The translations under genes and the position numbers were made by a program. A stretch of 64,000 nucleotides of DNA from Dipteris shenzhenensis (taxonomy: Eukaryota). The stretch is taken from the NCBI GenBank assembly GCA_047967505.1, contig CM106538.1. One strand, 5' to 3'. Every line of letters begins with the position of its first letter. The stretch's first letter is position 1. Positions 24,057-60,640 of the stretch are shown one piece after another. Under the pieces are notes generated by a model, which was not told the origin of the DNA, searched no databases, and saw nothing but the letters and a program-made list of their open reading frames with translations.

Positions 24057-24593
24057 CAACATGCAAGTTCTACATGCGAGTTTTACATGCAACTCCTACA
24101 TGCGAGTTCTACATGCGATTTCTACATGCAACTCTTATATGCAAGTCCTACATGCGAGTCCTACATGTGAGTTCTACATGCCACTCCTACATGCGAGTCC
24201 TACATGCGAGTTCTACATGCAACTCCTACATGCGAGTCCTACATGCGAGTTCTACATGCAAATCCTACATGCGAGTCCTACATGCGAGTTCTATAGGCAA
24301 CTCCTACATGCAAGTCCTACATGCGAGTTCTCTATGCAACTCCTACATGTGAGTCCTACATGCGAGTTCTACATGCAACTCGTACATGCGAGTCCTACAT
24401 GCGAGTTCTACATGCAACTCCTACACGTGAGTCCTACATGTGAGTTCTACATGCAACTCCTACATGCGAGTTCTACATGCAACTCCTACATGCGAGTTCT
24501 ACATGCGACTCCTACATGCAACTCCTACATGCGAGTTCTACATGCAACTCCTACATGCAACTTCTACATGCCTTTCCTACATGCAACTCCTAC
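24057..24593. repeat. 13-bp minisatellite, about 40 copies, CTACATGC(GAGTT/GAGTC/AACTC)
   Basis: Direct reading of the tandem units; it explains the repetitive ORFs 24061-24786, 24074-24352 and 24440-24682. Confidence 0.95.
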
Positions 24594-24599
24594 ACCTTC

Positions 24600-24880
24600 T
24601 GACTGCTTCAAGTTGCCACCTGCAGGTACACATTCTCCGGCTCCTCTTCTTTGCCGAAATACTCAATCATTGCTGCTATTAACCTTGGCCAGCTTTAGCG
24701 AACGTCTTCAGCCTGCTTCTCATACCACACTTGAGCCAAACCCTCTAGAAATGTGGGAAGAACCAACAGCCATCTATCTTCAGTAAGAAAGTTGAGAGAA
24801 ACACAGCGGTGCTTGAAGGCCACAAGATACTCATTTGGATTTTCTTCAACCCATCCACAAAACATGGGAATGTCAGCCAT
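24600..24880 (-). pseudogene. Ty3/gypsy gag N-terminal (capsid) fragment, truncated at the minisatellite
   Basis: MADIPMFCGWVEENPNEYLVAFKHRC...LPTFLEGLAQVWYE...W..L...F matches the retrotransposon gag pattern F-x-G...P..(Y/F)L..F...L.G.A..W(Y/F). Confidence 0.8.
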
Positions 24881-36500: not shown

Positions 36501-36579
36501 GTTAAACTGGAAAAAAATAAACAAATCTATTACTTTGGGAGCTGAGAAGAAAGGGGGGACAAAAAAAAAGAGGCTCTGT

Positions 36580-37475
36580 CAGTTCGCGTCTATAGACCCG
36601 TCTAATCTGCGCGTCTATAAACGCATCTAACAGAGCATTTAATAGTTCAAGTAAAAGCGCGTTTATCACCGCGTCTAACAAACCGTCAAAACATCCGTCT
36701 AACAGTGCGTTAAAAAGCGCGTTTAACAGCCCGTCCAAACATCCGTCTAACATCGCGTCTAAAAGCGCGTCTAACAATTCGTTTAAACTTCCGTTTAATA
36801 GATCGTCTGTTTAGGCGTCTATATCCGCATCTGTGCATGTCTGTAGCAAGCCAGACGCACAAATAGACGCGCCTGTAGATGCGCGTTTAGACGCGCCCTT
36901 AGACGCCTGTATACACGCGCTCCGACAGTCGAGAATACTCAAAAGTGGAAAAGGACGTTTCGCCCGACAAAAGAACGTGTCGCTCATACCTAGATGCTAT
37001 GTTTCGTGGATGCAAAAAAGTACAAAACTGGAAAGAGCAAGCAAGAACAACTTCAAAAGGACTTACTTGGAAAAAGGTATGGAAAGATCTTTCTTTTCCA
37101 AACTTGTTTCTTCTCCTCCTCTTCTCCTTGTTTGTACTCCTCCTCTTCTTTAGGCTTGGAAGCAAGCTGTGTAGGTACGGTCCCTTTGTCTTGAGTGAAA
37201 GCTTGGAACTGTGTGTGTATGGGAGGCTCTCTCTTAAGCTTCGAATCTATAGAACTGCTAATAATGAAGGAAAAAAGCCGCTCGCGAAGTTTAAGTTGTT
37301 AAAAGAAAAGCAAAGCGAGCGGCGCGCCGAAAAGCAGGTTTAAAAGTCGCGGGTATAGTCGCGTCTATTAGCGCGTCTACAAGCGCGTTTAAATACACAG
37401 AGTAGACGGGCATTTAGACGCGCAGGTAGACGCGACAGTAGACGCGACGATAGCGGGCATTTAGACGCGACACAG
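36580..37475. promoter_or_regulatory. Putative bidirectional promoter region with clusters of AGACGCG/CGCGTCT motifs
   Basis: Lies between divergent ATGs (36500 on -, 37533 on +). The motif is clustered at 36580-36920 and 37350-37475, and in both subterminal arms (34425-34670, 42130-42390). Confidence 0.55.
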
Positions 37476-37532
37476 AGTTTTTAAGTTAAGCATTTGAAGA
37501 AGAGCAAATTTGGTGGGTTGTTTGTTTGTAGG

Positions 37533-40500: not shown

Positions 40501-41954
40501 ACACCACCACGGATCTCGTGTGCCATACCCTCAGCGTCTAAGAGCACTTCCAAAGGATATTTATGTGGATTGGCTACTTGATGAAATGAAGAAAGCAGAG
40601 AAAGACGAGGGGATGCATATCACAATGGAAGAATGGGAGTATGCTAGGGGATGCATGAGCAAGGTCGGTATATAGAATGTTATGCATAAGTTAGGAGGTT
40701 TTTATAATTTAGATTGCTTATTTAATTGATTTTTTCTTGGTGTAGTGCACTATGTTCAATGCTATATGGTGTGAGGGCAAGCATTTTCGAACACAACGGA
40801 TTGATGATAAGAGAAACACACAAGATTGCGGCGTCATTGCTAGCTTTGAGGGAGCCAATGGAGTCATGGATGATTATTGTGGCATAATCCAAGATATCAT
40901 TATGCTTGACTTTCGACGCTTCTTTGTGTATGTTTTGGATGTAAAGTGGTTTAAGGACGTGGTGGAAAGAGGCCCTAATGCAACAATCAAACGCCATGCA
41001 AGTGGCTTTGTAACTATTGACTCCACAAAGTTTTGGCAAAGTAGGAAGGACACACTAATACTACCGCAACAATGTGAACAGGTACTGTGCACACACATAA
41101 AAATACTCGCTTTTAAATATTTGATGCAAGAAAAGTAACATGATTGTATTTGTGTTTGAATTAGGTTGTCTATCAACCAATGGTGGATAATAACTTCTTA
41201 TCCATTTGGTGGTCCAATCTGTTATCAAAGCATAGCACAACATCCCCCTCAGCAAAGTGTCTTTCCCATCCCTTGCGTATCTTAGCATCCAATCGGGCCT
41301 TTTGTCGATTCTTTTGGATCTCTGTTTGGTGTAGTGCAAGGTGTTGGATCTCATCTAACTTCTCAAGTTGTACCAATCTGGCCTCTACATGTTCATCTTC
41401 TGTCATCCTCTGTTCTTGTGCCAATCTCAAGGCCGGAATCTCTATCTCTAGTGGTAAAACTGCCTCAGTACCATACACCAACTCAAAAGGGGTGTGACCT
41501 GTAGATGTTTTATGAGTGATGTTGTAAGCCCACACGGCTTCAGTGACCTTCTGATCCCATTGGCTCTTGTTCCCTGCGGCCATTTTTCCTATGGTTTTAC
41601 AAAGGAGGCCATTGGTCCAATAGGTGGTGGCATGTCATACCTATTATGCCACGTTCCAAAGTGATGTATAGTACATTTACTAATATGGAGCATATGGAGG
41701 ATGATCATGCCCATGGACGTGATGATGATCGTGATACAAGAGAGGAGGATGATCATGAGATAGGAGATATAGATATTGAGGCCGGCATTACCCGTGAGAA
41801 CGAGCCTACCATTGGAGATCTTGATTTCGATGAGCACATGAGTGGCACAAGTAGTAGTGGGTTGAATGTATTTGTAGATCTAAACACTTGTTTGGATTTT
41901 GAAGTAGATAGTTTGGCAAGGGTTGATCTCATTGAGGATGAGATTGAACCGTAG
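37533..41954 (+). pseudogene. TnpD-type CACTA transposase (Transposase_21, DUF4218, DUF4216-like), multi-exon, nearly intact
   Basis: IHACVNDCVLF, CPTCGEARY, LGLGMDGVNPF, YNLPP, YLEPLIDEL, MHDFPGYG, LDPMHIFKNV, GLKSHDWH, FFLERFMKTLK. GT-AG introns between the ORF blocks. Lesions: TGA at 40145-40147 and the insertion at 41194-41618. Confidence 0.93.
41194..41618 (-). mobile_element. Isolated gypsy (Tat/Athila-like) integrase C-terminal fragment inserted in the transposase last exon
   Basis: WDQKVTEAVWAYNITHKTSTGHTPFELVYGTEAVLPLEIE...FAEGDVVL. The empty site GGATAATAATAGGTGG is visible in the paralogous copy at ~979-994. No LTRs. Confidence 0.9.
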
Positions 41955-43263
41955 CCCCACAATTGATATTGGCAAAACTATTTTACATATTGTCTCATTC
42001 TCCTCATTTCCCTTAATTCTTGTATATGTGGGCTTGCAAAAAATTATGTGCTTTGGTAATCATGGGCAATGTTTGGAAAGCAATGATGTACACCAAAATC
42101 TCACTTTCTGTATTCTCTGGATCGAATCTAACTCCGCGTCTAAATGCGCGTCTAAGTCTCAGTGTAAACGCGCAAATAAACGCGCAAATACACGCGCAAA
42201 TAGACGCGCTAATAGACGGGATGTTAGACAGGCCCGTATTTTCTCAGGTCTAACGCGCAAATAAACGCCGTTATTGACGCGGAAATAGACGAGCATTTAG
42301 CCGCGCTAATAGACGTGCCCGTAATTTCTCTACTAGAGCAACGCCTATAGACACGCTCGCTATTTTGCGCATCTACCAAGCGCGTCTATAGTTGCTTTGT
42401 GTTGTTGTGGATGACCAAAAGAAGCAGGCGGTCATCAATGAATTAAAACAAAAATATCCTGACCCGCCAAATTGGGAGTTTAATGAGGATTATATGCGAG
42501 AGCGCTTGCTGAAATGATTCTTTAACAAACTTTTGTCAGTCTTAGATGTTTGATATACTTATTCAAACACTTAGCATAAAATGTGACTTACAATGCAACC
42601 CATTAGGCTAACCACTCAAGTATGAATTCCTAAATCAATCTTGCTGAAATGATTCTTTAACAAACTTTTGTCAGTCTTAGTTGTTTGATATACTTTTTAT
42701 ACTCATTGAAATCGGTTTTATTTTCAGATATACTAGAGAAAGTGTCAAATTTGAGACTGCTTGGGTGAAAAATTGTATTATCATACATTTGTGAGCATTT
42801 TGTAATTACGTGTAATGGGTTTTTGTACTCCTTTTATTTTTATAAAATAGTCTTATGACTCTACCTTAAGCTCAAGATAGGGAATTGTCAAAGACACATT
42901 TACACCAAGTTGTTTTTTTTGCCAAAATATTAAAAGGACACTTTTATGTCCTGTTATGCTACCAAACTAGTGATAAAGTCCCTTTATTAGGTTGTTCTTA
43001 GAAAGCTTGATGTCGATGCAAATGAAGAGAGCATTATAAGGAGGTTAACCAAGCACAAGAGGTATTTGGAAACTCAAGTCAAACCCATAGAGTAATAAGC
43101 AATACCTCAATATGGGGAAGAGGGAGTACAAATAAGCACCCCTCCACCCCCCTCTTCCCCTTGCCCCGCCGCCCCCGGCGCTGGCTTTGTCAAATCCTAA
43201 CAACAATTGAAAGGAAAACATGAGTACACGACCCTAAAGCCTCTTGTCGTTGAACGGAGAAAA

Positions 43264-43341
43264 AGAGAGCGAGAGAAAGAGAGAGGGAGAGAGAGAGAGA
43301 AAGAGATAGAAAGATCGATAGATAGATAGAGAGAGAGAGAG
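43264..43341. repeat. (GA)n/(GATA)n tract upstream of the alpha-galactosidase gene (possible GAGA element)
   Basis: Purine microsatellite ending ~330 bp before the ATG; a regulatory role is inference only. Confidence 0.6.
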
Positions 43342-43669
43342 CTGGCGGGGGTGCTACGCCAGGCTTTTTCGGTCGCATCACGGTTGGCTGATACGCTACG
43401 ATTGCAATGAGTCAACAAAAGCAAAAGATCGTCGTCCAACATCCGCCAGCACAGGACGCCAAGATCGGCAACGACGGAGCTATCGAGGCAACAAGTCGTA
43501 AAAGATCGGCTTAGATGCTTGCTGTTGATCATCTTATCCTTATTCCTAATTATCTAACTTATCTGCTTCTTATATCTTCTTTTTAACCATTTCAATTCGT
43601 CGTCTTCTTCTTCGTGTAAGCTCTCTCTCGGCCTCCTCATCCGCTTCCCACCAGCTTGTCAATCCAGCT

Positions 43670-46600
43670 ATGGCGCCTCCTCCTCCTTTCTACTACCTCC
43701 TCCTCCTCTCCTTCTTCCTTTCCTTTGCTTCCTCCTCCCTCTCCTCTCCTTCATCCTCCCTCCCTCGCCGCCAAATGCTCTCCAATGGCTTGGGCCTCAC
43801 TCCTCAAATGGGGTATTTCTCCTCCCTTCCCATCTCCGTCCTGCTTTTTCCTGTCTTCTATTCCGTTGAGCGTCCATTACAACATGTGCCCGTCCCTTGG
43901 CATGCCTTTATAATCGATTTTGAGAACCAAACGCCTTTGCCTCTCCTCACATTTTTATTGCACCTGCAGATGGAATAGTTGGAACCACTTCGGTTGCCAA
44001 ATCGATGAGCAAATCATCCGCAATACTGGTACGTTTGCCTCCCTTCAGGACGTAAACGCAATTCTGGACGTTAAATAGAAGCTTTGTACATGGAAGTATA
44101 ATGAAATGACTCCGCGCCGTCGGAAAATATATCTTTTTGCTTGTTCACATTGCACCAAACTTATGTTGCGGCAGAAACCAAGTCCAGAATCGATTTACAA
44201 CTTCATCTTCGTCCCTGCATTCATTCGAATTGATGAATTCAATCTTTAGTTATGTTGAGACTCTGTATCTTACTAGATGGTCGATTACAAGCGCATCCTT
44301 TTACGTGTTATGCTTGCAGCCGACGCGATGGTTTCAACAGGGCTGGCTGCACTAGGGTACAAGTACGTGAACATAGGTAAGCTGCTTGACTGCGATTCTA
44401 CACTGTCGATTGTGTCGAAATGTTTTAGTATATCCAGAATGCACGGAATCACAAAATACATTTCTGCATTTCGGGTCACCGGTGCACGTTACGGATGCAT
44501 TTCATAATCTCTCAGCGTTCGACAGTTGTATAGAATTTATGGAGCATTGAGTTGTTATTGATCCTTTAACATTGAACAGATGATTGCTGGGCGGAACTGA
44601 GCCGTGACAGCCAGGTGAGTAACTCAATATTGCAGGTACGCGAGAAACTCAACCGAAAGTCTCGCCATAATTCTTCTCAAAACTTATTGCGAAACTTAAC
44701 GAATGGTCGCACAGGGTAATCTGCAAGCAAGACGTTCCACGTTCCCGTCTGGCATCAGCGCTCTTGCGGATTACGTGCACGCGAAAGGCTTAAAGCTAGG
44801 GATTTACTCGGACGCAGGGTCAGTTGCTAACTTTTTCCAAGTTTGTACTGTATCCATCTCCCCTATTCGCATTACGTGGAGTTCGGTGCATCACAGATTC
44901 ATGAAATCCGATTACGCATTGGTACAATGTGACTGAAGTCTGAACGAGATCGTTGTCTCTCAGATAATTTATCGATTTGATCTCGCGAGACTGATATTGC
45001 GTTAATTCCGCAGCTACAAAACTTGTCAAGGCCAACCTGCTTCGCTTGGGCATGAACAACAGGACGCCGCAACGTTTGCTTCTTGGGTACGTCGGTCCTG
45101 CTGTGCTGAGATTCTTAAATCTAACCTGCATTGCAATTTTAGACTATCGAGCTGAGCAAATGTTCCAAATTCGAATGTATGGTTTTTCGTTGCTTGTCTC
45201 ACGCGCGAAATGCGCAGGGAATCGACTATTTGAAGTACGATAATTGCAACAACGATGGATCATCGCCCGAAACGAGGTTGGCAGTCCCTGTCTTACGACA
45301 TTCTATTTTCCGGGGGGCGATGCCGATTACATGGCAAAGTCTTTGCTGTTACTTTTCTCATTCTGCTCCTTGCAGGTACCCGGTAATGCGAGATGCCCTG
45401 TTGAGCACCCAGCGTCCCATCTTTTTCTCCCTCTGCGAGTGGTGAGCACTGAGTCTGAAACGTCCCGCCCCGCTTATATTTTTTAATCAGACGAGCCGTG
45501 CACGCGGAGTTTTGACAATGTATCCGTGGATTTTACCCCTGTCCCCTTTTGTTGATACCAGGGGACAAGACAATCCAGCCACCTGGGCTCCCAAAGTCGG
45601 AAACAGCTGGAGAACCACTGGCGATATCAGCGACAATTGGGCAAGGTGAACGGAATCCATGGTTAAAAATTGTCACCGGTCCGTTAGCCCAAACTTATAC
45701 CATGGTTGTGTGGATATGGCAGTATGACATCCCGAGCCGATTTCAACAATGTCTGGGCTTCGTATGCCGGGCCTGGCGGATGGAACGGTGATGTCCGGAC
45801 TCCGAACACTTTCTTGCCGAAGCATCAGCTTTTTCTTTCGCGTCGGCAAGAGAAATATTTTTCATCATGTCCAGCTAACAATCAATCCGGCTTCTGCAGA
45901 CCCGGACATGCTAGAGGTGGGAAACGGAGGCATGACGACGGAAGAATACCGGTCGCACTTCAGCATATGGGCAATAATGAAGGTTTCCAGACTACTCTCA
46001 GCTCGTTTTCGCTTTCGATTGATCGCATTTGTGCTAGCTAGATGCTCTCATGGGGCAATCAAATATGTATGCCAATGCTTCTAACACGTAGTCGCTTGGT
46101 TGTGTGTCTCATTCAGGCTCCGCTTCTCATCGGTTGTGATGTTACAAACATCGGAAGCGACAATCTCGCGATATTAAGCAATCCCGAGGTTATTTCTGTG
46201 AACCAAGGTCAGTAGTTATATTAGGCAAATCTCGACGTCTTTGAGGGATAGTTTGCAGATGATCTAGGAGGTTTGCTGATCAAATGCTTGGGTTCCTCAA
46301 TGTGTTAAAAACACAGATTCACTAGGAGTGCAGGGAAAGAAGGTAAATCAGAACGGAAATCTGGAGGTAAGCCGTAACCGATACTATGTGCCTAGAATAT
46401 GTCGTTTCAAATAATTCTCATTTGCCGGAAGCTGGCTACCACAAATAATGCGAGAGGACGTGAATTGTGGCAAATTTACAGGTATGGTCTGCGCCATTAT
46501 CAGGGAACAGGGTAGTGGCAGTATTGTGGAATCGTGGAGATTCACCGTCTGTGATCACGGTCCAGTGGTCGGACATGGGTCTAGCGTCCTCGGCAGTGGT

Positions 46601-46862: not shown

Positions 46863-48738
46863 TGTCAAAAGTGGATCAATCCCAGCCGACTATATAATTG
46901 TGACATGTTATTCAGATCCGTCGATAAGTTCCGAAGCAGAAGTCCGGTAGATTAAATTAGGCATGGCCTTCTACAACACGCGCGCGTAGTTGCCGGGAAT
47001 CTTCAACAAGACTAAGAAAATTTGTTGCCAAACCCACAACAAATTTCGTGGTAGGCAGTGAGGTTGTCAACCAATCAATGGCAGCTGCAGCATCGCAATC
47101 TCTATCGTTATTCTAACGCTTCAGGCGATCAACGCCGGAATAATTCTGTTGTGACAGATGTCCAAATGTAAATGTTTTTGTCTTCCCTTAGGCCAATCTT
47201 TCCTTCAAAACAAAGGCGTGTGTTAATGTGATTGGTTGGGTGCCAAAATGTGTATCTTAAATCTACAATTCAAAGTTCAGCCTCACAATTTGCCTTTTAA
47301 GTTTGCAAATTTCTTTAAGTATTTCGAAATCACTCACCCACCCACCCACCCTTTAATTTGGCCTGTCATAGCATACTATAGAATCTGGACATGTTGTAGG
47401 ACCACTAGGGTGCCAGTCCATCCGCATAAGGAGTGAGTTACAATATTGTTGTGAAGATCCAAAACCCATGTAGGTGCCTTGTTATTCATGCATTCTTGAG
47501 TTCTTTTGGAAACACTAGAAAAATCATATGGTTCCTCAAGCTTTATATTTTTGTAACTTTTTATGTGGACATGGCAATGGAAGATTAAGGGGAAAATCTA
47601 ATCAAAATTCACATTACCATGTAGAGATAACAAGTTCATCCTTATTTGCTATGGGCTTTAAATAAAGTCCGCTTTATTCTAGGGTAAAACTAATGAAGAT
47701 GACTTTGTTGTAAAAGAACACAAGTCATATAACAAGAGTGAATGTCGGCAACAATGACAAGTCTCGCTAACTATGATTAAAAAAAGTTGTTCGAGACTTT
47801 GCATAAGACTTCAAGTGCCCTCATCTACCTTAAGAATCATCGCCAAAAATTAATAGTGTAATAGGAAATTTTATCCAAAAGTTGTATTGTTGATGAATCT
47901 TGGTTTACTATAGTTTTGATCCGCTAGAACCTTAATCACTAATGAATGTTGATTTAACACATAGATTACATCTGCCAAGAAAATGCTTACCTATGATCGG
48001 AGAAAATATTCTAAAAACATAGAATAAGAAAACATACCTGTTAAGCCTTAAAAAATAATCTAAAAATGCAACAAATGTTGATGCCTTTACATTGCTAATG
48101 CATTTGAGGATGGATACAATATTAATTGCTCATAAGTAAGTAAGATAGATAGGGTCCTCACATAAATCAAAGGTTATCTTATGAAAGGGTTTAGTACATA
48201 CATCGTCAGTGTGATGGTGCATGGTAGTAGTATTCTCTCATCAAGGGAATACTTGTGATGTAAGGAGTTTAGAGATTTTTCATGATGGAACAACTTCAGT
48301 CAAGTTATTTCATTTATGCATTGCATGAGTTTACACTTGGAGATACACCAACGATTGTGCCACCCTTTATAAAGAAGAGGATCACTCTTACATGTGATTG
48401 CTTCACGTGAAGATCATCCCTCATAATGTGGGGGATTTTTTGCATGTAGCAATGGGCCACCTATACAAAGGTAATGGACATTGTAATGCTTTAAGTAGTC
48501 CTTGTTTGATATCATGATAATAAAGGGTATGCATTGTATCAACGCTCACTATTGGAAGAATCTTAAATGCAAAATGTTAAGCCTACAATAACATGCATAA
48601 AGGATTGCTTGTGAACAACTCATTAGGTACCATAAACTTTACAATTAAAATCACGACATTGCAAGCAATGATAACTTTAGTTGGCCGTGACATGTGGCCT
48701 CACGAAATTCCCGTCAACAGAAAGGGAAACCCACACGC

Positions 48739-48905
48739 TGATAAAATATGAAGAGGGGAGAGGAGAAGAGTGGAGATGAGGAGAGAGGGCATAGCTAGAG
48801 AGCACACCACAAATGACTAACTATACACTAGATTTAGTTGAAAATGTAGGACATATACTAACCCTTTTAGAGTTAGAGTTAGGGAATCTAACCCTTTCCT
48901 TTATA
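48739..48905 (-). mobile_element. Distal part of a copia 3' LTR (proximal part at 57033-57095), split by the Sola-like transposon
   Basis: Minus strand reads PPT TTGAGGGAAAG (57096-57106), then TGTTGAGAAACC...GC TATA [insertion] AAGGAAAGGG...CATATTTTATCA, about 230 bp when rejoined. Homologous to 21857-21974. Confidence 0.8.
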
Positions 48906-49029
48906 AATACGTATTTCATTAATTTTGGCCTGGTGCACTGTCCAAATTCGTTTTGTGAGATAATTTTGGATAAAACATTTAAAAAAAAGAGGCTCTTATA
49001 AAACAAAACATTGAGTCAAAAAGGAACCA

Positions 49030-52000
49030 TGTCTTTTTTACGGTTGTGCATGACACTAAGGCAAAAACGGTGTATAATGCGTGTTGCTTATGCAAAGCAT
49101 ATCCAATGGGAACAATACTTTGCATATGCCTCAACCTATGTGGTGTTGAGTTTCATGCAAAGTGACGTGCCCATGCCATAAGTACTTGTTCGAATAACAC
49201 ACCTAGGAATGCATTTTTGATGGTAGTGCATATCACAAGGATGAAAATGGTGTATACTGTGTAATTGACAATGCAAATCATATACGATGGACATAGTACT
49301 TTGAGCACACCTCAACCTAGGTAGTATTAACTTGTGTGCAAAGAGGTGCCCCCATCCGATAAGCACTTGTTCGAATAACACACCTAGGACCATGTTTTTT
49401 GACGGTTGTGCATGACACTGGGGCAAAAACAGTATTTAATGCTCCCTCGACCATGCAAAGCATATTCGATGGGCACAATACTTTGCATGCTCCTTCAAAG
49501 TGGGGGTATTGAGTTGTATGCAAAGTGATACACCCATACGATAAGCACTTGGTCGGATAACACACCTAAAAGTGTGTTTTTTAATAGTTGTGCATGACAC
49601 AAAGGCACAAACTATGTTTTATGCGTGATATACCATGCAGAGCATTTGCGATGGACACAGTACTTTGCATGTGCCTCAATCTAGGTGAAATTGACTTACA
49701 TGCAAAGTGGCGTGTCCATTCGATAAGTACTTGATCAGATAACATACCTAGCGATGTGCATGACGCTAAGGTAAAAATGGTATTTAATGCTCGATCGACC
49801 ATGCAAAGCATATTCAATGGACATAATACTTTGCATGTGCCTCAAATGTAGTGGTATTGAGTTGCATGCAAAGTGTTACTCCCATCCGATAAGCACTTGG
49901 TCAGATAACACACCTAAAAGCATGTTTTTTTAGGGTTGTGCATGACACTGAGGCACAAACGGTGTATAATGAATGATCAATATACCATCAAAACATATCC
50001 AATGGGCACAATACTTTGCACGTGCCTCAAAATAGGTGTTATTGAGCTGCATGTAAAGTGGTGTGTCCATCCGATAAGTACTTGATCGGATAACACACCC
50101 AGGAGCGTGTTTCATTACGAATGTGCTTCACTAAGGCAAAGACGGTATTTAATGCTCAATCGACCATGCAATGCATATCCGATGGGCTCAATACTTTACC
50201 TGCACCTCAACCTAGGTGGTATTGTCTTGTTTGCAAAGAGACACACCCATCCGATAAGTACTTGGTCATATAACACACCTAGCAGCGTGTTTTTTTACGG
50301 ATGTGCATAACGCTAGAGGAAAAACAGTGTATAATGCGTGATCGACCATGGAAAGCATATCTGATGGGAATAATACTTTGCAAACACCTCAAACTAGTTA
50401 AACTTGACTTGCGTTCAAAGTGGAGCCCCCATCCGATAAGTACGTTTGAATAACACCCCTAGGACCGTGTTTTTTTATGGTTGTGCATCACACTAAGGCA
50501 AAAACGGTATTTTATGCTTGATCGACAATGCAAAGCATATTATATGGACACAATACTTTGCACACACCTTAAACTAGGTGGAATTGACTTGCATGCAAAG
50601 TGGCATGCCCATCCCATTGGTACTTGTACAAATAACACATCTAGGAGCGTGTTTTTTTACGGTTGTGCATGACACTAAGGCAAAAACTGTGTATAATGCA
50701 TGATTGCCTATGCAAAGAATATCCGATTGGCACAATACTTTGCATATGCCTCAAACTATGTGGTGTTGAGTTTCATGCAAAGTGACGTGCCCATACCATA
50801 AGAACTTCTTCGGATAACATACCTAAGAGCGCATTTTTTAACCGTAGTGTGGTGTATAATGCGTGATTGACAATGCAAATCATATCAGATGGGCACAATA
50901 CTTTGTGCACAACTCAACCTAGGTGGTATTGACTTGTGTGCAAAGAGGTGCCCCCATCCGATAAGCACTTGTTTGAATAACACACCTAGGTTTGTGTTTT
51001 TTGACAGTTGTGCATGACACTAAGGCAAAAACGGTATTTAATGCTCCCTTGACCATGAAAAGAATATCCGATGGGCACAATACTTTTCATGGACCTCAAG
51101 AGAGGTGGTATTCATGAGTTTCATGCAAAGTGGTACACCCATCCAATAAGCACTTGGTCGGAAAACACACGTAAAAGCATGTTTTTTAATGGTTGTGCAT
51201 GATACTGAGGCACAAACGGTGTTAAATGCATGATATACCATGCAAAGCATATCCGATGTGCACAATACTTTGAACTCACCTCAACCTAGGTGTTATTGAG
51301 TTGCATGCAAAGTGGCATGTCCATCCAATTAGTACTTGATCGGATAACACACCTAGGACGGTGTTTTCTTACAAATATGCTTAACACTAAGGCAAAAACG
51401 GTATTTAATGTTCAATCAACCATGAAATGCATATTTTACGGCCACAATACTTTACATGCACCTCAACCTAGGTGGTATTGACTTGTTTGCAAAGAGGCAC
51501 ATCCATCCGATAAGTACTTGTTCGGATAACACACCAAAGAGCGTGTTTTTTTACGGATGTGCATAATACTAGGGGAAAAACGGGGTATAATGCGTGATCA
51601 ACCATGGAAAGCATATCCGATAGGCACAATAATTTGCATGCAACTCAACCTAGTTAAACTTGACTTGCATGCAAAGTGGATCCCCCATCCGATAAGTACT
51701 TGTTTGAATAACACCCCTAGAACCATGTTTTTTTATGGTTGTGCATCACACTAATGCAAAAACGGTGTTTTATGCTTGATCGACAATCCAAAGCATATCC
51801 GATGGGCACAATACTTTACACACACCTTTAAATTGGTGGAATAGACTTACATGCAAAGTGGCACTCTCATCCCATAATCACTTGTTCGAATAACACACGT
51901 AGGACTGTATTTTTTTACGGTTGTGCATGACACTAAGGCAAAAATGGTGTATAATGCATGATTGCCTATGCAAATCATATCTGGTGGGCACAATACTTTT

Positions 52001-52620
52001 CATATGACTCAACCTATGTGGTGTGAAGTTTCATGCAAAATGATGCGCCCATACCATAAGTACTTGTTCGAATAACACACCTAGGAGCGCGTTTTTTGAC
52101 GGTAGTGCATATCATAAGGATAAAAATGGTGTATAATGCGTGATTGACAATGCAAATCATATCCGATGTGCACAATACTTTGATGCACCTCTACCTAGGT
52201 GGTATTGACTTGTGTGCAAAGAGGTTCCCCCATCTGATAAGCACTTCTTTAAATAACACACCTAGGACCGTGTTTTTTGACGGTTGTGCATGACACTAAG
52301 GCAAAAATGGTATTTAATGCTCCCTCGACCATGGCAAGCATATTTGATGGGCAGAATACTTTGCATGTGCCTCAAGAACGGTGGTATTGAGTTGCATGCA
52401 AAGTGGTACACCCATCTGATAAGTACTTGGTTGGATGACACACCTAAAAGCATGTTTTTTTATGGTTATGCATGACACTGAGGCACAAATGGTGTTTAGT
52501 GTGTGATATACTATGCAAAGCTTAGCCGATGGGCACAATAATTTGCACACACTTCAACCTAGGTGTTATTAAGTTGCATGCAAAGTGGCGTGTCCATCTG
52601 ATGAGTACTTGATCGGATAA
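49030..52620. repeat. Tandem satellite, ~20 monomers of ~181-182 bp, inside the left arm of the transposon
   Basis: GGTTGTGCATGACACTAAGGCAAAAACGG-like heads recur at about 49042, 49222, 49404, 49586, 49753, 49934, 50119, 50299, 50479, 50661, 50843, 51006, 51191, 51373, 51555, 51737, 51919, 52101, 52282 and 52463. Confidence 0.95.
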
Positions 52621-52727
52621 CTTCTCCCACCAATAAATTAAGTACTAATTAAAATTATGATAAATGAGTAGATTATTAAAAAGAGACTAATTAATATTTA
52701 TGTAATTGTTGCTACTGCAGAGCCTGC

Positions 52728-55700
52728 TTGCAAAGGACTCTCACAAAGGAGATGGCTATAGATTTTATTCCAGGGATGGATGTGATTTTATGTAGCAAAA
52801 GAGAAGTAGTTGCATTTGCTACAATCCATGATAGTGATCCCAATTCAGTTTGCCAATTTCGAAGACTTGGCAAAGATAAGGTGGCAGTTACTATATCAAA
52901 GATTCTTAGTGCACATGTTGAGCTAAAGTATAAATATGGAGATATGGAAACACTTGGAGATGTTATGCCCTACAATACATCCAACAAATCATTTATAGCA
53001 TGGGACAGAGACGAGACTTATGCAATAGACATTATCAAGAATACAAAGTGCACCACCTTGGATTTTACTATAGGGGACTTTTTACAAATGAGATCATTTG
53101 CAAATAAGAATGTAGCAGAAGGTGAAGTATTGGGATTTGAACAAGTGGAGGAATGGTCATTTGCACAGATGGGGATTCTAAAAGTCACTGATGATGGTAT
53201 GGTTGATAACATAACATCCTTATGTGATCCCTACTAGGAGGTAGGCAAGAATATGAGATGGAGCATGCAATTTTTAAACATGAGAAAGAGGCACATGGTT
53301 TCAATGATAAAGACAAGGTATACTACAATATCAAAGGACCTAAAAAGCATGCCCATGTGCCAAGCTCTATCACTTCAAACGTGGATGATTTCAATGTACT
53401 CAATTATAGAAGTGACATCTTATCTGGAGTGGATGAGTTCATCGGTTCTGAGAAACAAAAAGATTTTAGAAGTGAAGCCTTATCTGGGGTGGATGAATTC
53501 TTGCACAATGAGAAGGGCAAAGGTTTTAATAGCGATGTCTTGTCAAGTGTGGATGAGTTCATGCATATTAACAAACCCGGTTTCAATCAAGCTTGTGGAT
53601 TTGTGAAAGCCATGCAAGTTGTCCCAATGAGCGATGTTCTCTCAAGAGTGGAAGAGTTTCAAGGTTCTCAATACTCTTGTAGAATATTGAATTCATTGAA
53701 TGGTCCTAAGAGTATGTTAAAAACGAGGATGAGATTAATAGAGGATTATTTAGTATTTAACTTGATTGTGATATGGCCAAGGATGCAACAACCAATCATG
53801 GATGCTTGGTTACAAACAAATGTGAGGAGAAGAAGTGCATAAATACAAATAACAATGTGCACGAGGAATGAGAAGAGAAAGCAAATCCAGACAGATCCAC
53901 AAAAGCAACCAAAGACGAAGAGAGTAATGAAGGAGGAGAAAATGTTAAATGCATTGGGATATCTATGTTGCAAGCAAAGATGTATGCACTTTATTGATCT
54001 TGCAGACATCAAGGAATGTAGAGGACACGTGTGGCAAAGAAGAGGAAGCGAAAGAAATCAATACCTTCTCACAGGTCTCTCTTGCTTTCTTCAGAATGGC
54101 AATAAAAGGCTAAGTTCAAGACAAAAGGAAAAACCTCTCGTAAATGGAAAAAGATTTGCAATAAGGCATATCGCAATATTACTGGATTATCCCATGGTAC
54201 ATATTGGGATTTAGTCACCAAGGCAAAGGGCGGTAAAAAATTTAGCATTCATGGTAATAGAGGAAGGTCCAAATCAAGAATCTCAACTATTAGGGAAGTA
54301 GCAATTTTGCAAGACTTCATACATGAAAATGCTTTACCTCAACCCCATATATCTACCAAAATCCCTAACAGTGATGCGATCACTGAAATGCACCTTCCAA
54401 TGGGCTTGACAAAGCTCAAAGTATTTGACTCTATTGCAAAAAAGCAAAGGCAAAGAGGGGGCGCCGTGGCTTCTTCTCATACTTTGTATACTCTTTGGAA
54501 GAAAAACTTTGGATATGTTAAAATCCCAAAGAGGCAAAAAATGTCAAAGTGCAATGTCTGTGATGATTTAAAGTGAGCGATTGAGAGTGCAAGATATCCA
54601 AATCAAAGGGAATTATACAAAAAAAACTAAAAATCTCATCATGACCTTATTTGACATTCCAGACAAAAATATGCATTTTGGAAGGAGCAAGCTATTTCGG
54701 ATAACGATGACTACATGTGCCTTATTGTAGATGGCATGGATCAGAATACAACATTGCCTTGTTTCGTTGCCACTCCACCTAAATTATAAGGAAAGCACTT
54801 TCTAAAGACACATTTATGTGGAGTGTTAGTGCATGGAATTAAGTTTTTTGTAGATATATGGATTGATTCCTTACATCTACATTTGAGCAATCACGTTGTA
54901 ACATCTATTATGAAGGCAATTCGCAATGTACATGCAAAAAAAGGTTGCCTACCACCGACTTTGAGAATACAAGCTGAAAATTGTTGGCAAGAAAATAAGA
55001 ATGTACTCATGTTTGCATTCTGCTCAATGCTAGTTGCTCATCGAATCTTCAATGAGGTTGAATGTGGATTTTTGTATGTTGGGCATACACATGAGGATAT
55101 CAATCACGTCTTTAGCACAGTCTCAAGAGAGCTTAAATGCAAGGATGTGGAGACAATAGATGACTTGGTAAGAAGATGTGGGAGGCAAGTTGGAGGTCAT
55201 AAGGAAAGTACGGTATGTGAGAGGCTCAAAAGAATGTATGATTGGAAGAGCTTCATTCTACCTTTCATACAAACAGGTGGTGATGCATTGACAGGTCATA
55301 CCAATCCACACTACTTTCATTTTTTTTAAAAAGATGAAAGACTCGTAATGCAATGGAAATAGTATTCTCATGATACAAAATGGGAACTAAAGAACCTTAC
55401 AATCTCTTAACTTCAATTCCCAACAAGGAAAGGTATCCAACATGGGCTCCTATAAAAGAATTCAATGAGAGGTCTAATTGTGAAATAGAAGGACTAAAAG
55501 CATTTATTACATACAAAGAGGAAATGCTCCAGAGATATCCTGATTCGAAGCCTACTTGGAGAGAACACACTACCACTGTAATTAACAAGACACGAAAATT
55601 AATAAAGGACCTTGAGAGAATGTGAGGCTCAAAGGATGTCAAGGAAGAATGCAATATATTTTGGCCAAATGTTCATAACGATTTGCGCCCAGCTCTAATT

Positions 55701-56207
55701 AATCTTTGAAAATGAATTTGTATCATTACTCCCACATCCATATTATGGACCGAAGAAGAGGGAGTTTATGCCACAAGTAGATGTAGAGGTTGATTGTTTG
55801 ATTGTGGTTCAGCCATCAGATGATGAATATGAGAATGTGAAGTTTTGGGTTGCAAAAGTAGTTGATGTGCAAAGAGATGATTAAGGAGAGCTACAACATT
55901 TACAGTGGTATGGTATGAGCCAAAGGGCAGGAAGGAGAATATGGATAACAACACATTGTATACTAATTGTGTAATGAAGGAGTGAGTCCCAAATGATGAA
56001 GCAGTCTCACAAGTTTTGATGGAGACAATCATAGTGTCTTGGCATTCAAGGGCAAAGAAATCAAAGAAATGCATGGGATATGAGGCAGAAGGAAAAATAA
56101 AAATACCACAGCAAAGTATTTTAAGGATGCTCACCTTGGAGGAAGTAGAAGGAGACAACGCAAATGAAGAATGTCCATGTTTAAAGCTTTGTATTGAAGT
56201 CCATTGA
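52728..56207 (+). pseudogene. Decayed transposase gene of the Sola-like element
   Basis: CCKQRC; LWKKNFGYVKIPK..KMSKCNVC; LIVDGMDQ (54721); LRIQAENCWQENKN; FLYVGHTHEDINHVF; YDWKSF; C-terminal FWVAKV..VVWYE. Many stops and frameshifts. The expected DNC and EDID appear as ENC and EDIN. Confidence 0.85.
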
Positions 56208-57199
56208 AGGCTTTTATTTGGGTACTAGGCAAGAAGCCAATTGACAATTATAATCATATATTATTAGACTAGTAGGTGCAACTGTACTGAGTCATCACCT
56301 CCTATGTCAAATGAGAGTCAAAATATGCATTGGATGTCACCCAAGGGGCTAAGCTTGGCAAGAAAATAGGGAGTTAATGCAAAAGGCACCTGGCAAGCGA
56401 CTGTCACATTGAGCAATAAGACAACGGGGAGTCAATGCAGATGGCACGGATTCATCAGGCTCTTTAAGAGCAACAATTTTGTAAACCTTGTTCAATCTAT
56501 ATCATTTTATACAAAGACTCTAGCTGAGAGCAACATCTCTCATTGTAATCATATAATGATAGCTATAATTGCTATTATAATTCTTTGGTTCAATACGAAA
56601 CTTGGGTCTTATGGCATCATGTCTTTTTTCTATTTATTAAAAGTTTTAAATTTGTGCATATTGCGAGTGACAATGCTATTTACATGATATATTTAAGTCC
56701 CCTTTCATGGATTTATAAATTTATCATGTTAAGTAAAATATTAAAAACAATTAAATTAACAAATAACATAGGAATAGCTAGAATTTCTAAAATAGGATTA
56801 TTTCAAATTCTTGCATGTTAGTGTAAAAGTATAGATTGAAAAAACAAGATTTTTATGTGAATATGATAGTGCCACAAAGTGAACTTTTGATTTGGGAAGA
56901 ATATTTTCAGAAAGTAAAATTTTGATTTGGGAAGGATATTTTCACAAAGTAAACTTTTCATTTGGGAAGGATTTTTGGGCTTCATCCAAAAACAACAGAA
57001 AAAGTCCAAAATTAATGAAATAGGTGTTTATAGCAATCGATTGGGTTAGTGCTATGCACATACGATTGCATGATGTTGAGCATGGTTTCTCAACACTTTC
57101 CCTCAAGATCAACATCATGAAGTAGGCCTTCCCTCAAGATGATGATTCTCGGGAATTGAAGAAAGACTAAGCATTACATTCCATCACACCCCTTTAATG

Positions 57200-58285
57200 G
57201 GAATGTCCTTCCTCTGAGTCAAACCAAGAGCTTGTCGGTGTTTCTTGAAAAGCTTTTTACAGAGTGGTTTGGTAAAGATGTCTGCAACATTCTCTCTACT
57301 ATCACAATGCTACAGTGTGATGTCACCAAGTAACACTCTTTCTCTGATGAAGTGTCCTGGAGTGATATAATGGATTCTTGGCCAATGCTTGAGTCGATTG
57401 ATTATCACACTATATTGTTGTTGGCTTTGATTCATCAAAGCAGTCTGTTTCTGACAATAGGCTTCTGAGTCATATAGCCTCACATGTACCTATAGTGAGT
57501 GCCCGATATCTGCTTTAGTCAAAGACAAAGAAACTATTGGCTATTTATTTGACAACCATGATATAGCACCTTGATCAAGGAAAAATGCATATCCCTATGT
57601 CGATCTCCTAGTCTCATGATCTTCGGCATAGTCACTGTCATAGTATCCATGCAACCTTGGATGACTTCCTCTGTATTCTCAAATATATAGGAGATCCGAT
57701 GAGCTGTCGATAGTACCTATCATTAACTGTAGGCTTGTTTGAATCTTTTCTAAGTTTCAAACTTTGTTCCATGGGAGTGGCTGCAATCTTGCAATCTGCC
57801 ATATGAAACTTCTTCAAGAGATTATCAACATACTTTAGCTGACTCATGAAGATGCTGTCTGAATCTTTCAAGAATTCAATACCAAGACAATAGTGCATAA
57901 GTCCAATATCTTTCATGTCGAACTCTACAGACAAGTCTTGTTTCAACCTTTTGTTGATATCACTAGTGACACTGATGAGCAGATGGAATGTGTACCAGCT
58001 CCATGTCAAGAATGCTTTTCTCAATGGTTACCTAGATGAGGAAGTCTACATGCAACAACCAGTAGGTTATGTTGAACCAAGAAAAGAGAATCATGTTTAC
58101 CATCTCAAGAAAAGTCTCTACGGCTTAAAGAAAGCACCCAAAAGCTGGTACAACTGAATCAACAAGTATTTTGTTGATCTGAGATACATGAAATCCAATG
58201 GAGATCATACTCTCTACTATAAAGTTCAAGGGGAAGACATTACTTTTTCACTTTTGTACGTAGATGATCTGATTGTGCCTAGAAG
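57200..58285 (-). pseudogene. Copia RT/RNase H remnant; the N-terminal RT piece (~57972-58285) is inverted onto the + strand
   Basis: Minus strand: EFDMKDIGLMHYCLGIEF, ATPME, YRQLIGSPIYL, ADIFTKPL. Plus strand: QLHVKNAFLNGYLDEEVYMQQP, LKKSLYGLKKAPKSW, LYVDDLI. Confidence 0.9.
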
Positions 58286-59223: not shown

Positions 59224-59879
59224 GACTCCCCTAGATGCACACATGCACCTTATAGGATGCCATGACCAGTTTCATGCGATGTATACAAACATAGCAAATA
59301 TTCAAGTAATTTTTTCTATTGTACCAAGGATTAATGTATGAGGAAATTGCTTCGACCACTCCAAAGATGAGTATGCAAGGGTAGTTTGAGATGTCCACAA
59401 AGCCAAGGTTAAATGTCACTTGCGTAGTGTAAGGAAGCCATAGCAACACAATAGGAAGGCCCATAAAGATCTTGCAAATCAAGAACCAATAATCTAAAAA
59501 CACAACGAGCATCTGGGCATCCGAAAGTACCGAACACTTGGGCATCTAGAAGTACTAAACAACTGGGTAGCCGGAAGTACCGAACAACCATAAATATAAC
59601 GAGCATAAGCCACACACGTCTGACAAGAGGCAAGCTGGTGTGGATTAGACACAACTTACATAATCATAGCGGGAATGAAATAGCAACCTTCTTGCATCTG
59701 GAAGTACCGAACAACCAAAAATACAACAAGGATAAGCTACACACAAATGACAAGAGGCAAGCTGGTGTGGATTAGACACTGCTTACATAATCATAGTAGG
59801 AATAACAACCGGGAAGATGAGCATCTAAGATTACAAAGAACATCTGAAAGTAACTGAGAAAATGAGCATTCGAGAACGG

Positions 59880-60640
59880 TGATCACGTCCAAATGAGTAC
59901 TCAATAGTAATCCATATGTGCCACATCCAAATGAGTACTTAATAAATTATCCATATGTGCCATGTCCAAACAAGTACTCAAGAAGTAATCCATATGTGTT
60001 CATAACTATTGTCACCTTAAAGACCCACATCCAAATGAGTATGCAACAAGTAATCCATAGATGCCACATTCAAATGAGTACTCAATAAGTAATCCATATG
60101 TGTTCATCATGAAAGCCATATAAGTATGTGTCATGTCCAAATGAGTACTCAATAAGTAATCCATATGTATTCATCGTGAAAGCCATATAAGTATGTATCA
60201 CATCCAAATGAGTACTCAATAAGTAATCCATATGTTCCATGTCCAAATGAGTACTCAATAAGTAATCCATATGTGTTCATATGAAAGACTTCATGTCCAA
60301 ATGCGTATGTAATATGACCACGTCAGAATGAGTACTCAATAAGTAATCCATATGTGTTCATCATGAAAGTCAAATAAATATGTGTCACATCCAAACGAGG
60401 ACTCGGTAATAATCCATGTGCCATGTCTAGACGAGTACTCAAGTAGCCATATGCCACATTTAGATAAGTTCTCAAGTAGTTAGCCATATGTATTCATAAA
60501 TATTGTCACTTGAAAGATGTTGAACCTTTCCACATTTAAACGAGTACTTAATAAGTAATCCATAGGTGCCATGGCCAAACAAGTACTCAATAAGTCAGCC
60601 ATATGTGTTCATCGTGAAAGACATATAAGTATACCTCACC
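59880..60640. repeat. Tandem repeat array with core CCAAATGAGTACTCAATAAGTAATCCATATG (~40- and ~65-bp unit variants)
   Basis: Core repeated more than ten times. The adjacent 59500-59810 carries GGAAGTACCGAACAACC repeats and a ~125-bp duplication; (AC)n at 59191-59220. Confidence 0.9.

What the first reader, a model, noticed from the sequence alone, without database searches (positions are those of the whole stretch)
48906..57028. DNA transposon carrying a ~181-bp satellite with a 7-monomer higher-order repeat
Seen: 3.6 kb of the element's left arm is ~20 monomers of ~181-182 bp. Diagnostic variants recur in the order ABCDCDEFG-ABCDEFG-ABCD (e.g. CTATGTGGTG at ~49137/50757/52015; CTAGTTAAACTTGAC at ~50394/51650). 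This is a ~1.26-kb higher-order unit with one extra CD duplication, lying wholly inside TIRs and a TSD. Known: nucleosome-length monomers and higher-order repeats typify centromeric satellites, and TEs can seed satellites. Inference: a Sola-like transposon acts as a mobile satellite cassette, or uses the array as a protein-binding or nucleosome-phasing platform.
Basis: partly seen in the sequence, partly recalled or inferred. Interest (0 to 1): 0.8.

Follow-up and report, generated by a model that had tools for sequence, protein, structure and literature searches.

The report
Transposon carrying a higher-order tandem repeat
An old, broken 8.1-kb cut-and-paste transposon in a plant-like genome carries, between one end and its transposase gene, twenty 182-bp tandem repeats arranged in a seven-unit higher-order pattern; this is a clean new example of a known habit of transposons rather than a new kind of system.

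Summary
A 3.6-kb array (49035-52621) of 20 monomers of about 182 bp falls into seven well-supported classes in the order ABCDCDEFG-ABCDEFG-ABCD. It lies wholly inside an 8,123-bp element with 26-nt terminal inverted repeats and a TATA target-site duplication. A contig from another public run joins the two flanks without the element, so the unit is mobile.

The transposase is of the DUF7869 type with an RNase H-like fold. This copy is decayed, with at least four in-frame stops. The Sola label fits (4-bp duplication, size, inverted repeats) but could not be tested by sequence.

The array sits about 130 bp upstream of the transposase start codon. Higher-order copies differ by K2P 0.08-0.27. This copy differs from its nearest sampled relatives by only about 4%. 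The pattern was therefore most likely already in the element when it moved.

Monomers carry an old dyad symmetry but no end-repeat motif and no covariation. Nothing indicates large free arrays or a centromere role. Distant relatives share the end repeats, but none of the 80 fetched loci holds this monomer. It is a new member of the known class of transposons with internal tandem repeats, of moderate interest.

The parts
48902..48905 (.). Left target-site duplication TATA. The direct repeat could be read as up to 6 bp, TTTATA at 48900-48905.
   Evidence: Sequence. The empty-site joint 48899->57027 has 6 letters that fit either side.
48906..48931 (+). Left terminal inverted repeat, AATACGTATTTCATTAATTTTGGCCT
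   Evidence: It agrees with the right repeat at 23 of 26 positions, and its motif is conserved in related metagenome loci.
48932..49034 (.). Left subterminal spacer. Counting the copy inside the inverted repeat at 48922, the left end holds three ATTTTGGAY-like motifs: 48922 (+), 48940 (-) and 48963 (+).
49035..52621 (+). Tandem array of 20 monomers of about 182 bp. Each has an imperfect dyad of about 35-nt arms with an 11-12-nt spacer.
49035..50654 (+). Higher-order copy 1: monomers m1-m9, classes A B C D C D E F G. The second C D pair is at 49746-50112.
50655..51912 (+). Higher-order copy 2: monomers m10-m16, classes A-G, about 1.26 kb.
51913..52621 (+). Higher-order copy 3, partial: monomers m17-m20, classes A-D. 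The last monomer is cut at consensus position about 164.
52752..56207 (+). Decayed transposase gene. ATG at 52752, frame changes near 53230 and 54110-54214, and at least 4 in-frame stops (54574, 54628, 54652, 54787) inside the part that aligns with homologues.
54790..55329 (+). DUF7869 (PF25273) catalytic core. It carries E where 11 of 12 aligned sequences have D (residue 63), and GHTHEDIN instead of GHTHEDID.
56873..56976 (.). Three copies of a 35-bp subterminal tandem repeat just inside the right end.
57003..57028 (-). Right terminal inverted repeat. Read inward it is AACACCTATTTCATTAATTTTGGACT.
57029..57032 (.). Right target-site duplication TATA

Best explanation
This is a decayed, once-autonomous copy of a cut-and-paste DNA transposon. 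It is 8,123 bp long, with 26-nt inverted repeats, a 4-bp TATA duplication and a DUF7869-type RNase H-like transposase, probably of the Sola superfamily. The non-coding stretch between its left end and the transposase start codon holds a 3.6-kb tandem array.

The array grew in two phases by unequal exchange or replication slippage:
1. A 182-bp unit with an internal inverted duplication was amplified, and its copies drifted apart to about 70-80% identity.
2. A block of seven such monomers (1.26 kb) was copied to about 2.9 copies, and a two-monomer C D piece was copied once more.

The array is passive cargo. It moves because it lies between the inverted repeats. The higher-order pattern most likely existed in the parent element before this copy was made. 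No function of the array is needed to explain what is seen.

Shown: the anatomy, the seven classes, the element boundaries, the decay of the gene. Inferred: the growth mechanism, that the array predates this insertion, and that it has no function.
For: **Anatomy and classes.**

**Mobility.** One contig of run X1 joins 48899 to 57027, skipping 8127 bases. Two contigs of run X2 leave the window at 48905 with letters resembling the right flank.

**Transposase.**
- DUF7869 matches at E 1.2e-46.
- Homologues of about 1050 aa are 44-53% identical over the core.
- A model of homologue P0009 (mean pLDDT 67.9) weakly matches RNase H-like enzymes: IstA at E 6e-4 with TM 0.20-0.24, then Argonaute PIWI domains, Mos1, PFV integrase and TnsB.

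**Decay.**
- There are 4 in-frame stops within the stretch that tblastn aligns to homologues.
- Two of them (54574 and 54652, both TGA) read C at the first base in all 4 contigs that cover them, so they are private CGA->TGA changes.

**Position.** The array ends at 52621 and the ATG is at 52752.

**Age argument.**
- Six X1 contigs over 52802-56157 differ from the window at 148 of 3407 bases, 4.3% (table 8).
- The 21 within-class monomer pairs have K2P 0.078-0.266, median 0.166. Twenty of the 21 exceed 0.087, which is twice 4.3%.
- The block copying is therefore older than the split from the nearest sampled copies.

**Spread of the monomers.** Monomer-like contigs occur in both runs, with up to 9 distinct contigs at one array position (table 3).

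**The lineage tolerates internal tandem repeats.** A 35-bp repeat (3 copies) lies inside the right end here. A 112-113-bp repeat (2.6-4 copies) lies just inside the right inverted repeat in four distinct related loci: the L011/L012/L018/L073 locus, L055, L075 and L078.

**Against a binding role.**
- Monomers show no similarity to the inverted repeats or subterminal regions beyond shuffles.
- The array holds only two one-mismatch matches to ATTTTGGAY.
- The dyad is 72% paired, against 27-40% when slid, but its covariation equals the shuffles.
Against: - No other full copy of this family could be read, so a shared array is inferred, not seen.
- The age argument assumes equal substitution rates in array and gene, and that the contigs are true family copies.
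- Joints in X2 contigs place monomers in other orders (B next to G, D next to B, C next to G). Other arrays may therefore not keep the 7-mer order, or these short contigs may be chimeric.
- Of the 80 distantly related loci, none holds this monomer and none of the left ends found has a tandem repeat within 700 bp. The one complete small relative (L073, 4.64 kb) has no room for such an array.
- The array is thus specific to this family at most.
- A regulatory or silencing role was not tested.
Confidence: 0.6

Rival explanations
1. One-off local growth. The array, or at least its 7-monomer block copying, arose in this single copy after it inserted, and other family members lack it.
For: None of 80 related metagenome loci holds the monomer. 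The small complete relative L073 has only about 2.1 kb between its left end and the catalytic core, close to the 2.2-2.3 kb left in the window once the array is removed. No second full copy was seen.
Against: Twenty of 21 within-class pairs have K2P above 0.087, more than this copy could have gathered since splitting from contigs 4.3% away. Monomer-like contigs exist in two independent runs, with up to 9 distinct contigs at one position. The 80 loci are only 28-51% identical in protein, so they say little about this family.
Confidence: 0.15
2. Captured satellite. A piece of a pre-existing genomic satellite, already organised in higher-order units, was taken up by the transposon through recombination or template switching during gap repair. 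It is now spread by the element.
For: Monomers share nothing with the element's own ends. The monomer length and higher-order pattern are satellite-like. Some array bins have up to about 10 times the word depth of the transposase bins in X1. The tool says depth is no copy number.
Against: Averaged over the array, word depth is only 1.4-3.4 times that of the transposase (my arithmetic), far from what a major satellite would give. All listed loose ends inside the array look monomer-like (my reading, table 7; 99 rows were not shown). No free array was seen, though none could be looked for.
Confidence: 0.13
3. Functional array. The dyad-bearing monomers act as a platform upstream of the transposase gene. 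They could bind a dimeric protein, phase nucleosomes, or give hairpin transcripts that feed small-RNA silencing of the element.
For: The array lies directly upstream of the start codon. Conserved dyad blocks (CTTTGCA/TGCAAAG, GATGGG/CCCATC) are kept in nearly all 20 monomers. The cores of 4 of 6 monomers fold better than shuffles, with z from -3.0 to -4.8. The N-terminal ORF and two of its relatives give weak, sub-threshold hits to TNP1/En-Spm Transposase_23 (E 0.016-0.034).
Against: There is no covariation that would show selection for pairing. Two of 6 cores no longer fold well. There is no end-repeat motif. Conservation among copies inside one decayed element reflects shared descent. The related element L073 has no room for an array of this size.
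Confidence: 0.1
4. Nested insertion. The array belongs to a second, separate mobile element that landed inside the transposon.
For: In the related locus pair L011/L073, a 7.6-kb internal insert carrying short palindromic repeats shows that such nesting happens in this lineage.
Against: No inverted repeats or duplication bracket the array. It starts at monomer position 1-2 and ends at about 164, with unrelated flanks.
Confidence: 0.02

Closest known systems
Tetris, a foldback transposon of Drosophila virilis with about 220-bp internal tandem repeats (TIR-220) (PMC4079207, abstract read)
   Same: A DNA transposon carries tandem repeats of roughly nucleosome length within its boundaries, so the repeats travel with it and can serve as building blocks for satellite arrays.
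   Different: Tetris is non-autonomous and its repeats sit inside long inverted repeats. Kilobase-size free arrays were shown for it. Here the element encodes its own, now broken, transposase, and the array is on one side only, between a short inverted repeat and the gene. It shows a 7-monomer higher-order pattern, and no free arrays are known.
Plant transposons with central or internal tandem repeats (Tnat1/Tnat2 of Arabidopsis with 60- or 240-bp repeats; tandem repeats in 3' UTRs of Tat-lineage LTR retrotransposons that also form satellites), as summarised in PMC10794571 (passages read)
   Same: Internal tandem repeats in the non-coding parts of plant mobile elements, known as a source of satellite DNA.
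   Different: They are other element classes and families. I did not see a higher-order repeat mentioned in the passages read.
Sola superfamily of DNA transposons (described in PMC10741241, passages read: DDD transposase, 4-bp duplications, 2-9 kb, inverted repeats of 11-1124 bp, present in a moss, rare in flowering plants)
   Same: A 4-bp duplication (TATA), 8.1 kb, 26-nt inverted repeats, an RNase H-like transposase with conserved acidic residues, and a plant-like host.
   Different: Membership rests on these general traits only. The transposase could be matched only to Pfam DUF7869, and no Sola sequence or profile was available to compare.
Alpha-satellite-type higher-order repeats of centromeres (recalled knowledge)
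   Same: A monomer near nucleosome length and a multi-monomer unit whose copies are more alike (about 85%) than neighbouring monomers (about 73%).
   Different: There are only 2.9 unit copies in 3.6 kb. Unit copies are 75-93% alike rather than 95-100%. The array lies inside a transposon arm, and there is no evidence for a centromere.
Subterminal repeats of CACTA/En-Spm elements bound by the element's own protein (recalled knowledge)
   Same: A repeated non-coding region between an end and the transposase gene.
   Different: Those are short motifs near both ends. Here the monomers are 182 bp, lie on one side, and lack the motif repeated at the ends.

Membership tests
Terminal-inverted-repeat cut-and-paste DNA transposon | Terminal inverted repeats flanked by a target-site duplication, with an empty site elsewhere | tested here: met
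   Inverted repeats are 27 of 30 complementary. TATA lies on both sides. A contig joins the flanks and skips 8127 bases.
Terminal-inverted-repeat cut-and-paste DNA transposon | Encodes an RNase H-like DDE/DDD transposase | tested here: met
   DUF7869 matches at E 1.2e-46. The blocks DGMDQ, QADNC and GHTHEDID are conserved among homologues. The fold search gives weak matches to IstA, Mos1, integrase, TnsB and PIWI domains (model pLDDT 67.9, TM 0.2). This copy itself is broken.
Sola superfamily | 4-bp target-site duplication | tested here: met
   TATA abuts both ends, and the inverted repeats then align from their first base. L011 also has TATA at both ends. Caveat: TATA is its own reverse complement, and the direct repeat could be read as up to 6 bp.
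Sola superfamily | Transposase groups with Sola1, Sola2 or Sola3 transposases | not testable with these tools
   No Sola sequences or profiles are in the libraries on hand. Pfam gives only DUF7869. No paper mentions DUF7869 (0 papers).
Transposon-borne satellite seed (Tetris-like) | Tandem repeats lie inside the element's boundaries | tested here: met
Transposon-borne satellite seed (Tetris-like) | The same repeats also form longer arrays outside the element | not testable with these tools
   No genome is held. The single read-laying run used short contigs only. There are no monomers elsewhere in the window.
Centromere-type higher-order satellite | Multi-monomer unit whose copies are more alike than adjacent monomers | tested here: met
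   Lag-7 identity is 0.853 against 0.73 at lag 1. None of 20000 permutations reaches it.
Centromere-type higher-order satellite | Long, homogenised arrays (unit copies 95% or more alike) | tested here: not met
   There are 2.9 unit copies in 3.6 kb. Within-class identity is 75-93%, with median K2P 0.166.
Centromere-type higher-order satellite | Association with centromeric histone | not testable with these tools
   This needs ChIP data.
Subterminal transposase-binding repeats (CACTA-like) | Repeat units share the motif found next to the inverted repeats and occur near both ends | tested here: not met
   Monomer scores against the inverted repeats and subterminal regions do not exceed shuffles. 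ATTTTGGAY clusters at both ends, but the array has only 2 one-mismatch matches. The array is on the left side only.

The most novel reading that the evidence does not exclude
A plant transposon family of the DUF7869/Sola type carries a ready-made satellite: nucleosome-length monomers already organised in a 7-monomer higher-order unit. It drops this cassette at new chromosomal sites, where it can expand into free satellite or centromere-competent arrays. Alternatively, the dyad-bearing monomers upstream of the transposase gene are used by the element or the host as a silencing or chromatin platform.
Probability: 0.1. Interest if true: 0.75.

Novelty: new member of a known kind. Interest (0 to 1): 0.4.

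Why it matters
How satellites with higher-order structure first arise and reach new chromosomal sites is still debated. Transposons with internal tandem repeats are one accepted source.

This element is a tidy case. A complete 7-monomer higher-order unit lies inside a defined mobile unit, with boundaries confirmed by an empty site. Dating suggests the pattern was already there when the element moved.

If other copies share the pattern, or if free arrays derive from it, the family would let one follow the step from transposon cargo to satellite in a plant-like genome. It would also document this habit in a little-studied transposase family (DUF7869, perhaps Sola). If only this family's decayed copies carry it, it remains a curiosity of repeat evolution.

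Tried and rejected
**Routes that were closed or empty**
- Own genome: none is held, so the decisive genome-wide monomer and end-repeat census could not be run.
- Earlier findings of the scan: nothing for this place, for the monomers or for the transposase. The one word hit concerned an unrelated minisatellite.
- Sequencing runs: only two runs held about 9% of the sampled words. The single read-laying run gave short contigs, so linkage of arrays to inverted repeats in other copies could not be read. Depth ratios are reported only as weak hints.
- Close protein relatives of the catalytic core: none above 61% identity in either length class.

**Searches that found nothing relevant**
- Metagenome loci: 80 relatives at 28-51% identity. 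The monomer HMM found 0 hits in them.
- Papers by Bao 2009 and by Yuan and Wessler 2011 were not held under the ids I tried.
- A search for Sola + satellite + transposon + monomer as whole words gave 12 papers. The 11 listed, by title and start of abstract, did not describe such an element.

**Ideas tested and dropped**
- An array of palindromic 24/48-bp repeats in L011 first looked like a shared architecture. It lies in a 7.6-kb stretch that the homologous locus L073 lacks, so it is probably a nested insert.
- Monomer derived from the inverted repeat: rejected.
- Selected hairpin: RNAalifold found only 9 pairs with about zero covariation. The manual dyad structure showed no excess covariation.
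- The N-terminal ORF has no similarity to the N-terminus of homologue P0001.
- The bacterial promoter/terminator scan is irrelevant to a eukaryote and was ignored.


Full report
**1. The observation**

Tandem Repeats Finder reports one array at 49034-52621: period 182, 19.9 copies, 72% matches, score 2780. An HMM built from three monomers finds 20 plus-strand copies, all within 49036-52621. It finds nothing elsewhere in the 64-kb window. The 15 weaker minus-strand hits all lie inside the array and reflect a dyad symmetry within each monomer.

I cut the array into 20 monomers and aligned them. Identity within the seven classes below is 75-93%. Identity between classes is mostly 70-80%.

| Class | Monomers |
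|---|---|
| A | m1, m10, m17 |
| B | m2, m11, m18 |
| C | m3, m5, m12, m19 |
| D | m4, m6, m13, m20 |
| E | m7, m14 |
| F | m8, m15 |
| G | m9, m16 |

All seven classes are clades in a maximum-likelihood tree, with ultrafast bootstrap 91-100 and SH-aLRT 94-99. Mean identity at lag 7 is 0.812 for all 20 monomers and 0.853 with the extra C D pair removed. Shuffled monomer orders give 0.751 (sd 0.012), and none of 20000 shuffles reaches the observed value.

Two 'short' monomers are explained by 16-19-nt deletions across monomer junctions, which I read by eye from the alignment. The divergence between unit copies is far too high for an assembly artefact.

**2. The element around the array**

- **Inverted repeats.** They lie at 48902-48931 and 57003-57032 and are 27 of 30 complementary. 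Their 17-nt core occurs only at these two places in the window, against 0.02 expected.
- **Target-site duplication.** TATA abuts both ends. With a 4-bp duplication the two inverted repeats align from their first base (AATACG... and AACACC...). The direct repeat could be stretched to TTTATA.
- **Empty site.** In run X1, one contig joins 48899 to 57027 and skips 8127 bases, which equals 8123 bp of element plus 4. Six letters fit either side. In run X2, two contigs leave the window at 48905 with letters resembling the right flank. The insertion is therefore a discrete mobile unit. The flanks are themselves repeated, diverged sequence in those runs.

**3. The transposase gene**

The plus strand from 52752 to about 56207 holds a broken transposase gene.

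- **Family.** The ORF at 54790-55329 matches Pfam DUF7869 at E 1.2e-46. Unnamed homologues of about 1050 aa are 44-53% identical over this core.
- **Decay.** tblastn aligns homologues continuously over 54154-55377. That stretch contains four in-frame stops.
  - Two of them, the TGA codons at 54574 and 54652, read C at the first base in all four contigs that cover them. They are private CGA-to-TGA changes of this copy.
  - The third, TAA at 54628, carries a listed difference that would still give a stop in those contigs.
  - The fourth, at 54787, has no listed difference among the rows shown.
  - The copy has E at a position where 11 of 12 aligned sequences have D.
- **Fold.** A model of homologue P0009 (mean pLDDT 67.9) gives weak matches to RNase H-like enzymes. 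IstA is the best, at E 6e-4 and TM 0.20-0.24. It is followed by Argonaute PIWI domains, Mos1, PFV integrase and TnsB.
- **Spread.** The ESM Atlas lists DUF7869 clusters mainly from arthropods, molluscs and rotifers.

'Sola' could not be tested by sequence. A review describes Sola as DDD transposons of 2-9 kb with 4-bp duplications and inverted repeats of 11-1124 bp. It says they are present in a moss and rare in flowering plants (PMC10741241, passages read). All of this fits.

The window is plant-like. It also holds a CACTA transposase (Transposase_21, DUF4218) and leucine-rich-repeat gene pieces.

**4. Where the array sits and what a monomer is**

The array starts about 100 bp inside the left inverted repeat and ends at 52621. 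The transposase ATG is at 52752. The array therefore fills the left non-coding region upstream of the gene.

Each monomer has an imperfect dyad of about 35-nt arms with an 11-12-nt spacer.

- Across the 20 monomers, 72% of cells pair in the true register, against 27-40% when the partner is slid. Covariation, however, equals the shuffled control.
- Hairpin stability exceeds shuffles in 4 of 6 cores tested.
- The symmetry is therefore ancestral to the monomer and is simply decaying.

The monomers show no similarity to the inverted repeats or subterminal regions beyond shuffles. The motif ATTTTGGAY occurs three times at the left end and twice at the right end. Inside the array it has only two one-mismatch matches.

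**5. Relatives**

No genome is held for this window.

A metagenome scan with the catalytic core gave 80 loci at 28-51% identity, and none holds the monomer.

*Shared ends*
- Twenty-three of the 80 loci carry a close version of the inverted repeat, ACACaTATTTaATTAATTTtGGAC, with 2-6 mismatches of 24.
- Every minus-strand (right-end) match lies downstream of the transposase match.
- I ran no shuffle control. By my rough calculation about 0.5 chance matches are expected, so the two 6-mismatch cases may be chance.
- Several loci are the same place sampled more than once.
- Flanks next to these ends are A/T-rich, and L011 has TATA at both ends.

*Complete relatives*
- The one complete small relative, L073, is 4.64 kb.
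- L011 is the same locus with a further 7.6 kb inside.
- With its array removed, the window's element would be about 4.5 kb.

*Other internal repeats*
- Four distinct related loci carry a 112-113-bp repeat (2.6-4 copies) just inside the right inverted repeat.
- None has a repeat inside the left one.
- The window has a 35-bp repeat (3 copies) at the right end.
- The lineage therefore often carries internal tandem repeats, but this 182-bp array is specific to the window's own family at most.

**6. Age**

Six X1 contigs over 52802-56157 differ from the window at 148 of 3407 bases, 4.3%. A second set differs by 15-17% (table 8).

The 21 within-class monomer pairs have K2P 0.078-0.266, median 0.166. 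Pairs between classes average 0.32. If the blocks had been copied after this copy split from its nearest sampled relatives, pairs could differ by at most about 0.087. Twenty of the 21 exceed that.

The higher-order pattern therefore probably predates the split and was carried by transposition. This assumes equal rates in array and gene. CpG observed/expected is 0.61 in the array and 0.29 in the gene region, so the array is not the more decayed part.

Which unit copies are closest differs by class: 1-2 for A, 1-3 for B, 2-3 for C and D. This suggests near-simultaneous copying or some gene conversion.

**7. Abundance**

Both runs hold monomer-like contigs, with up to nine distinct contigs at one array position. 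Transposase positions are covered by one to six contigs (table 3).

Summed word depth over the array is on average 3.4 times (X1) and 1.4 times (X2) that over the transposase bins. That is my arithmetic on table 2, and the tool says depth is no copy number. This is what 2-4 monomers per class per element would give. It offers no hint of a large free satellite.

Some X2 contigs join monomers in other orders. They may be other arrangements or chimeric short contigs.

**8. Reading**

The best-supported account is passive cargo. A non-coding 182-bp unit was amplified in the left arm of the transposon and its copies drifted apart. A seven-monomer block was then copied about three times, and a C D pair once more, by unequal exchange or slippage. 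The whole array was spread when the element moved.

The rivals cannot be settled without the genome:
- growth in this one copy after insertion;
- capture of a pre-existing satellite;
- a functional platform;
- a nested insertion.

Transposons with internal tandem repeats that seed satellites are known. Examples are Tetris (PMC4079207, abstract read) and plant cases summarised in PMC10794571 (passages read). I therefore file this as a new member of a known kind. The clean higher-order unit inside a verified mobile unit is its point of interest.

Noticed in passing
window 36100-44000: A CACTA/En-Spm-type element. Transposase_21 (E 1e-48) lies at 38201-39019 and DUF4218 at 40148-40675. Short tandem repeats of 24/48 bp (36193-36798, 37402-37470) and 12/85 bp (42165-42330) look like its subterminal repeats.
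   Followed up: partly
window 52752-53237: The N-terminal ORF of the transposon gives a sub-threshold hit to TNP1/En-Spm Transposase_23 (E 0.02). Two of its seven relatives in the representative library do the same (E 0.016 and 0.034). One relative (P0062, 243 aa, on a 992-nt contig) is 77% identical over all 161 residues.
   Followed up: partly
window 53228-53842: The coding region holds a peptide repeat (about four units ending in SGVDEF-like motifs) between the N-terminal ORF and the catalytic part.
   Followed up: no
L003-L078 (23 of 80 metagenome loci): The terminal inverted repeat ACACATATTTAATTAATTTTGGAC is strongly conserved among elements whose transposase cores are only about 30-38% identical to the window's. 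Some right ends repeat a TTAATTTAGGACT-like motif twice.
   Followed up: partly
L011 1841-9503 versus L073 8934-9479: The same element at the same locus differs by 7.6 kb of internal DNA. In L011 this DNA includes about 1.2 kb of 24/48-bp repeats with a GGTGGCCACC palindrome (5400-6630). It is probably a nested insertion.
   Followed up: partly
L011 11610-11943, L073 12057-12367, L055 2840-3290, L075 5229-5523, L078 2598-2915: A 112-113-bp tandem repeat of 2.6-4 copies lies just inside the right inverted repeat of one subgroup of related elements.
   Followed up: partly
window 24055-24594: A minisatellite of 26/39-bp units (about 14-21 copies, 80-89% matches) overlaps a 244-aa open frame at 24052-24786.
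   Followed up: no
window 59500-60480: A nest of tandem repeats with periods 25, 39, 67, 127 and 187 bp lies about 2.5 kb to the right of the element.
   Followed up: no
window 3141-4279 (minus strand): Two open frames have leucine-rich-repeat matches, probably exons of one gene.
   Followed up: no
window 48662-48905 and 57027-57900: The DNA flanking the transposon is itself present in several diverged copies in the two runs laid, so the element seems to have inserted into an older repeat.
   Followed up: no
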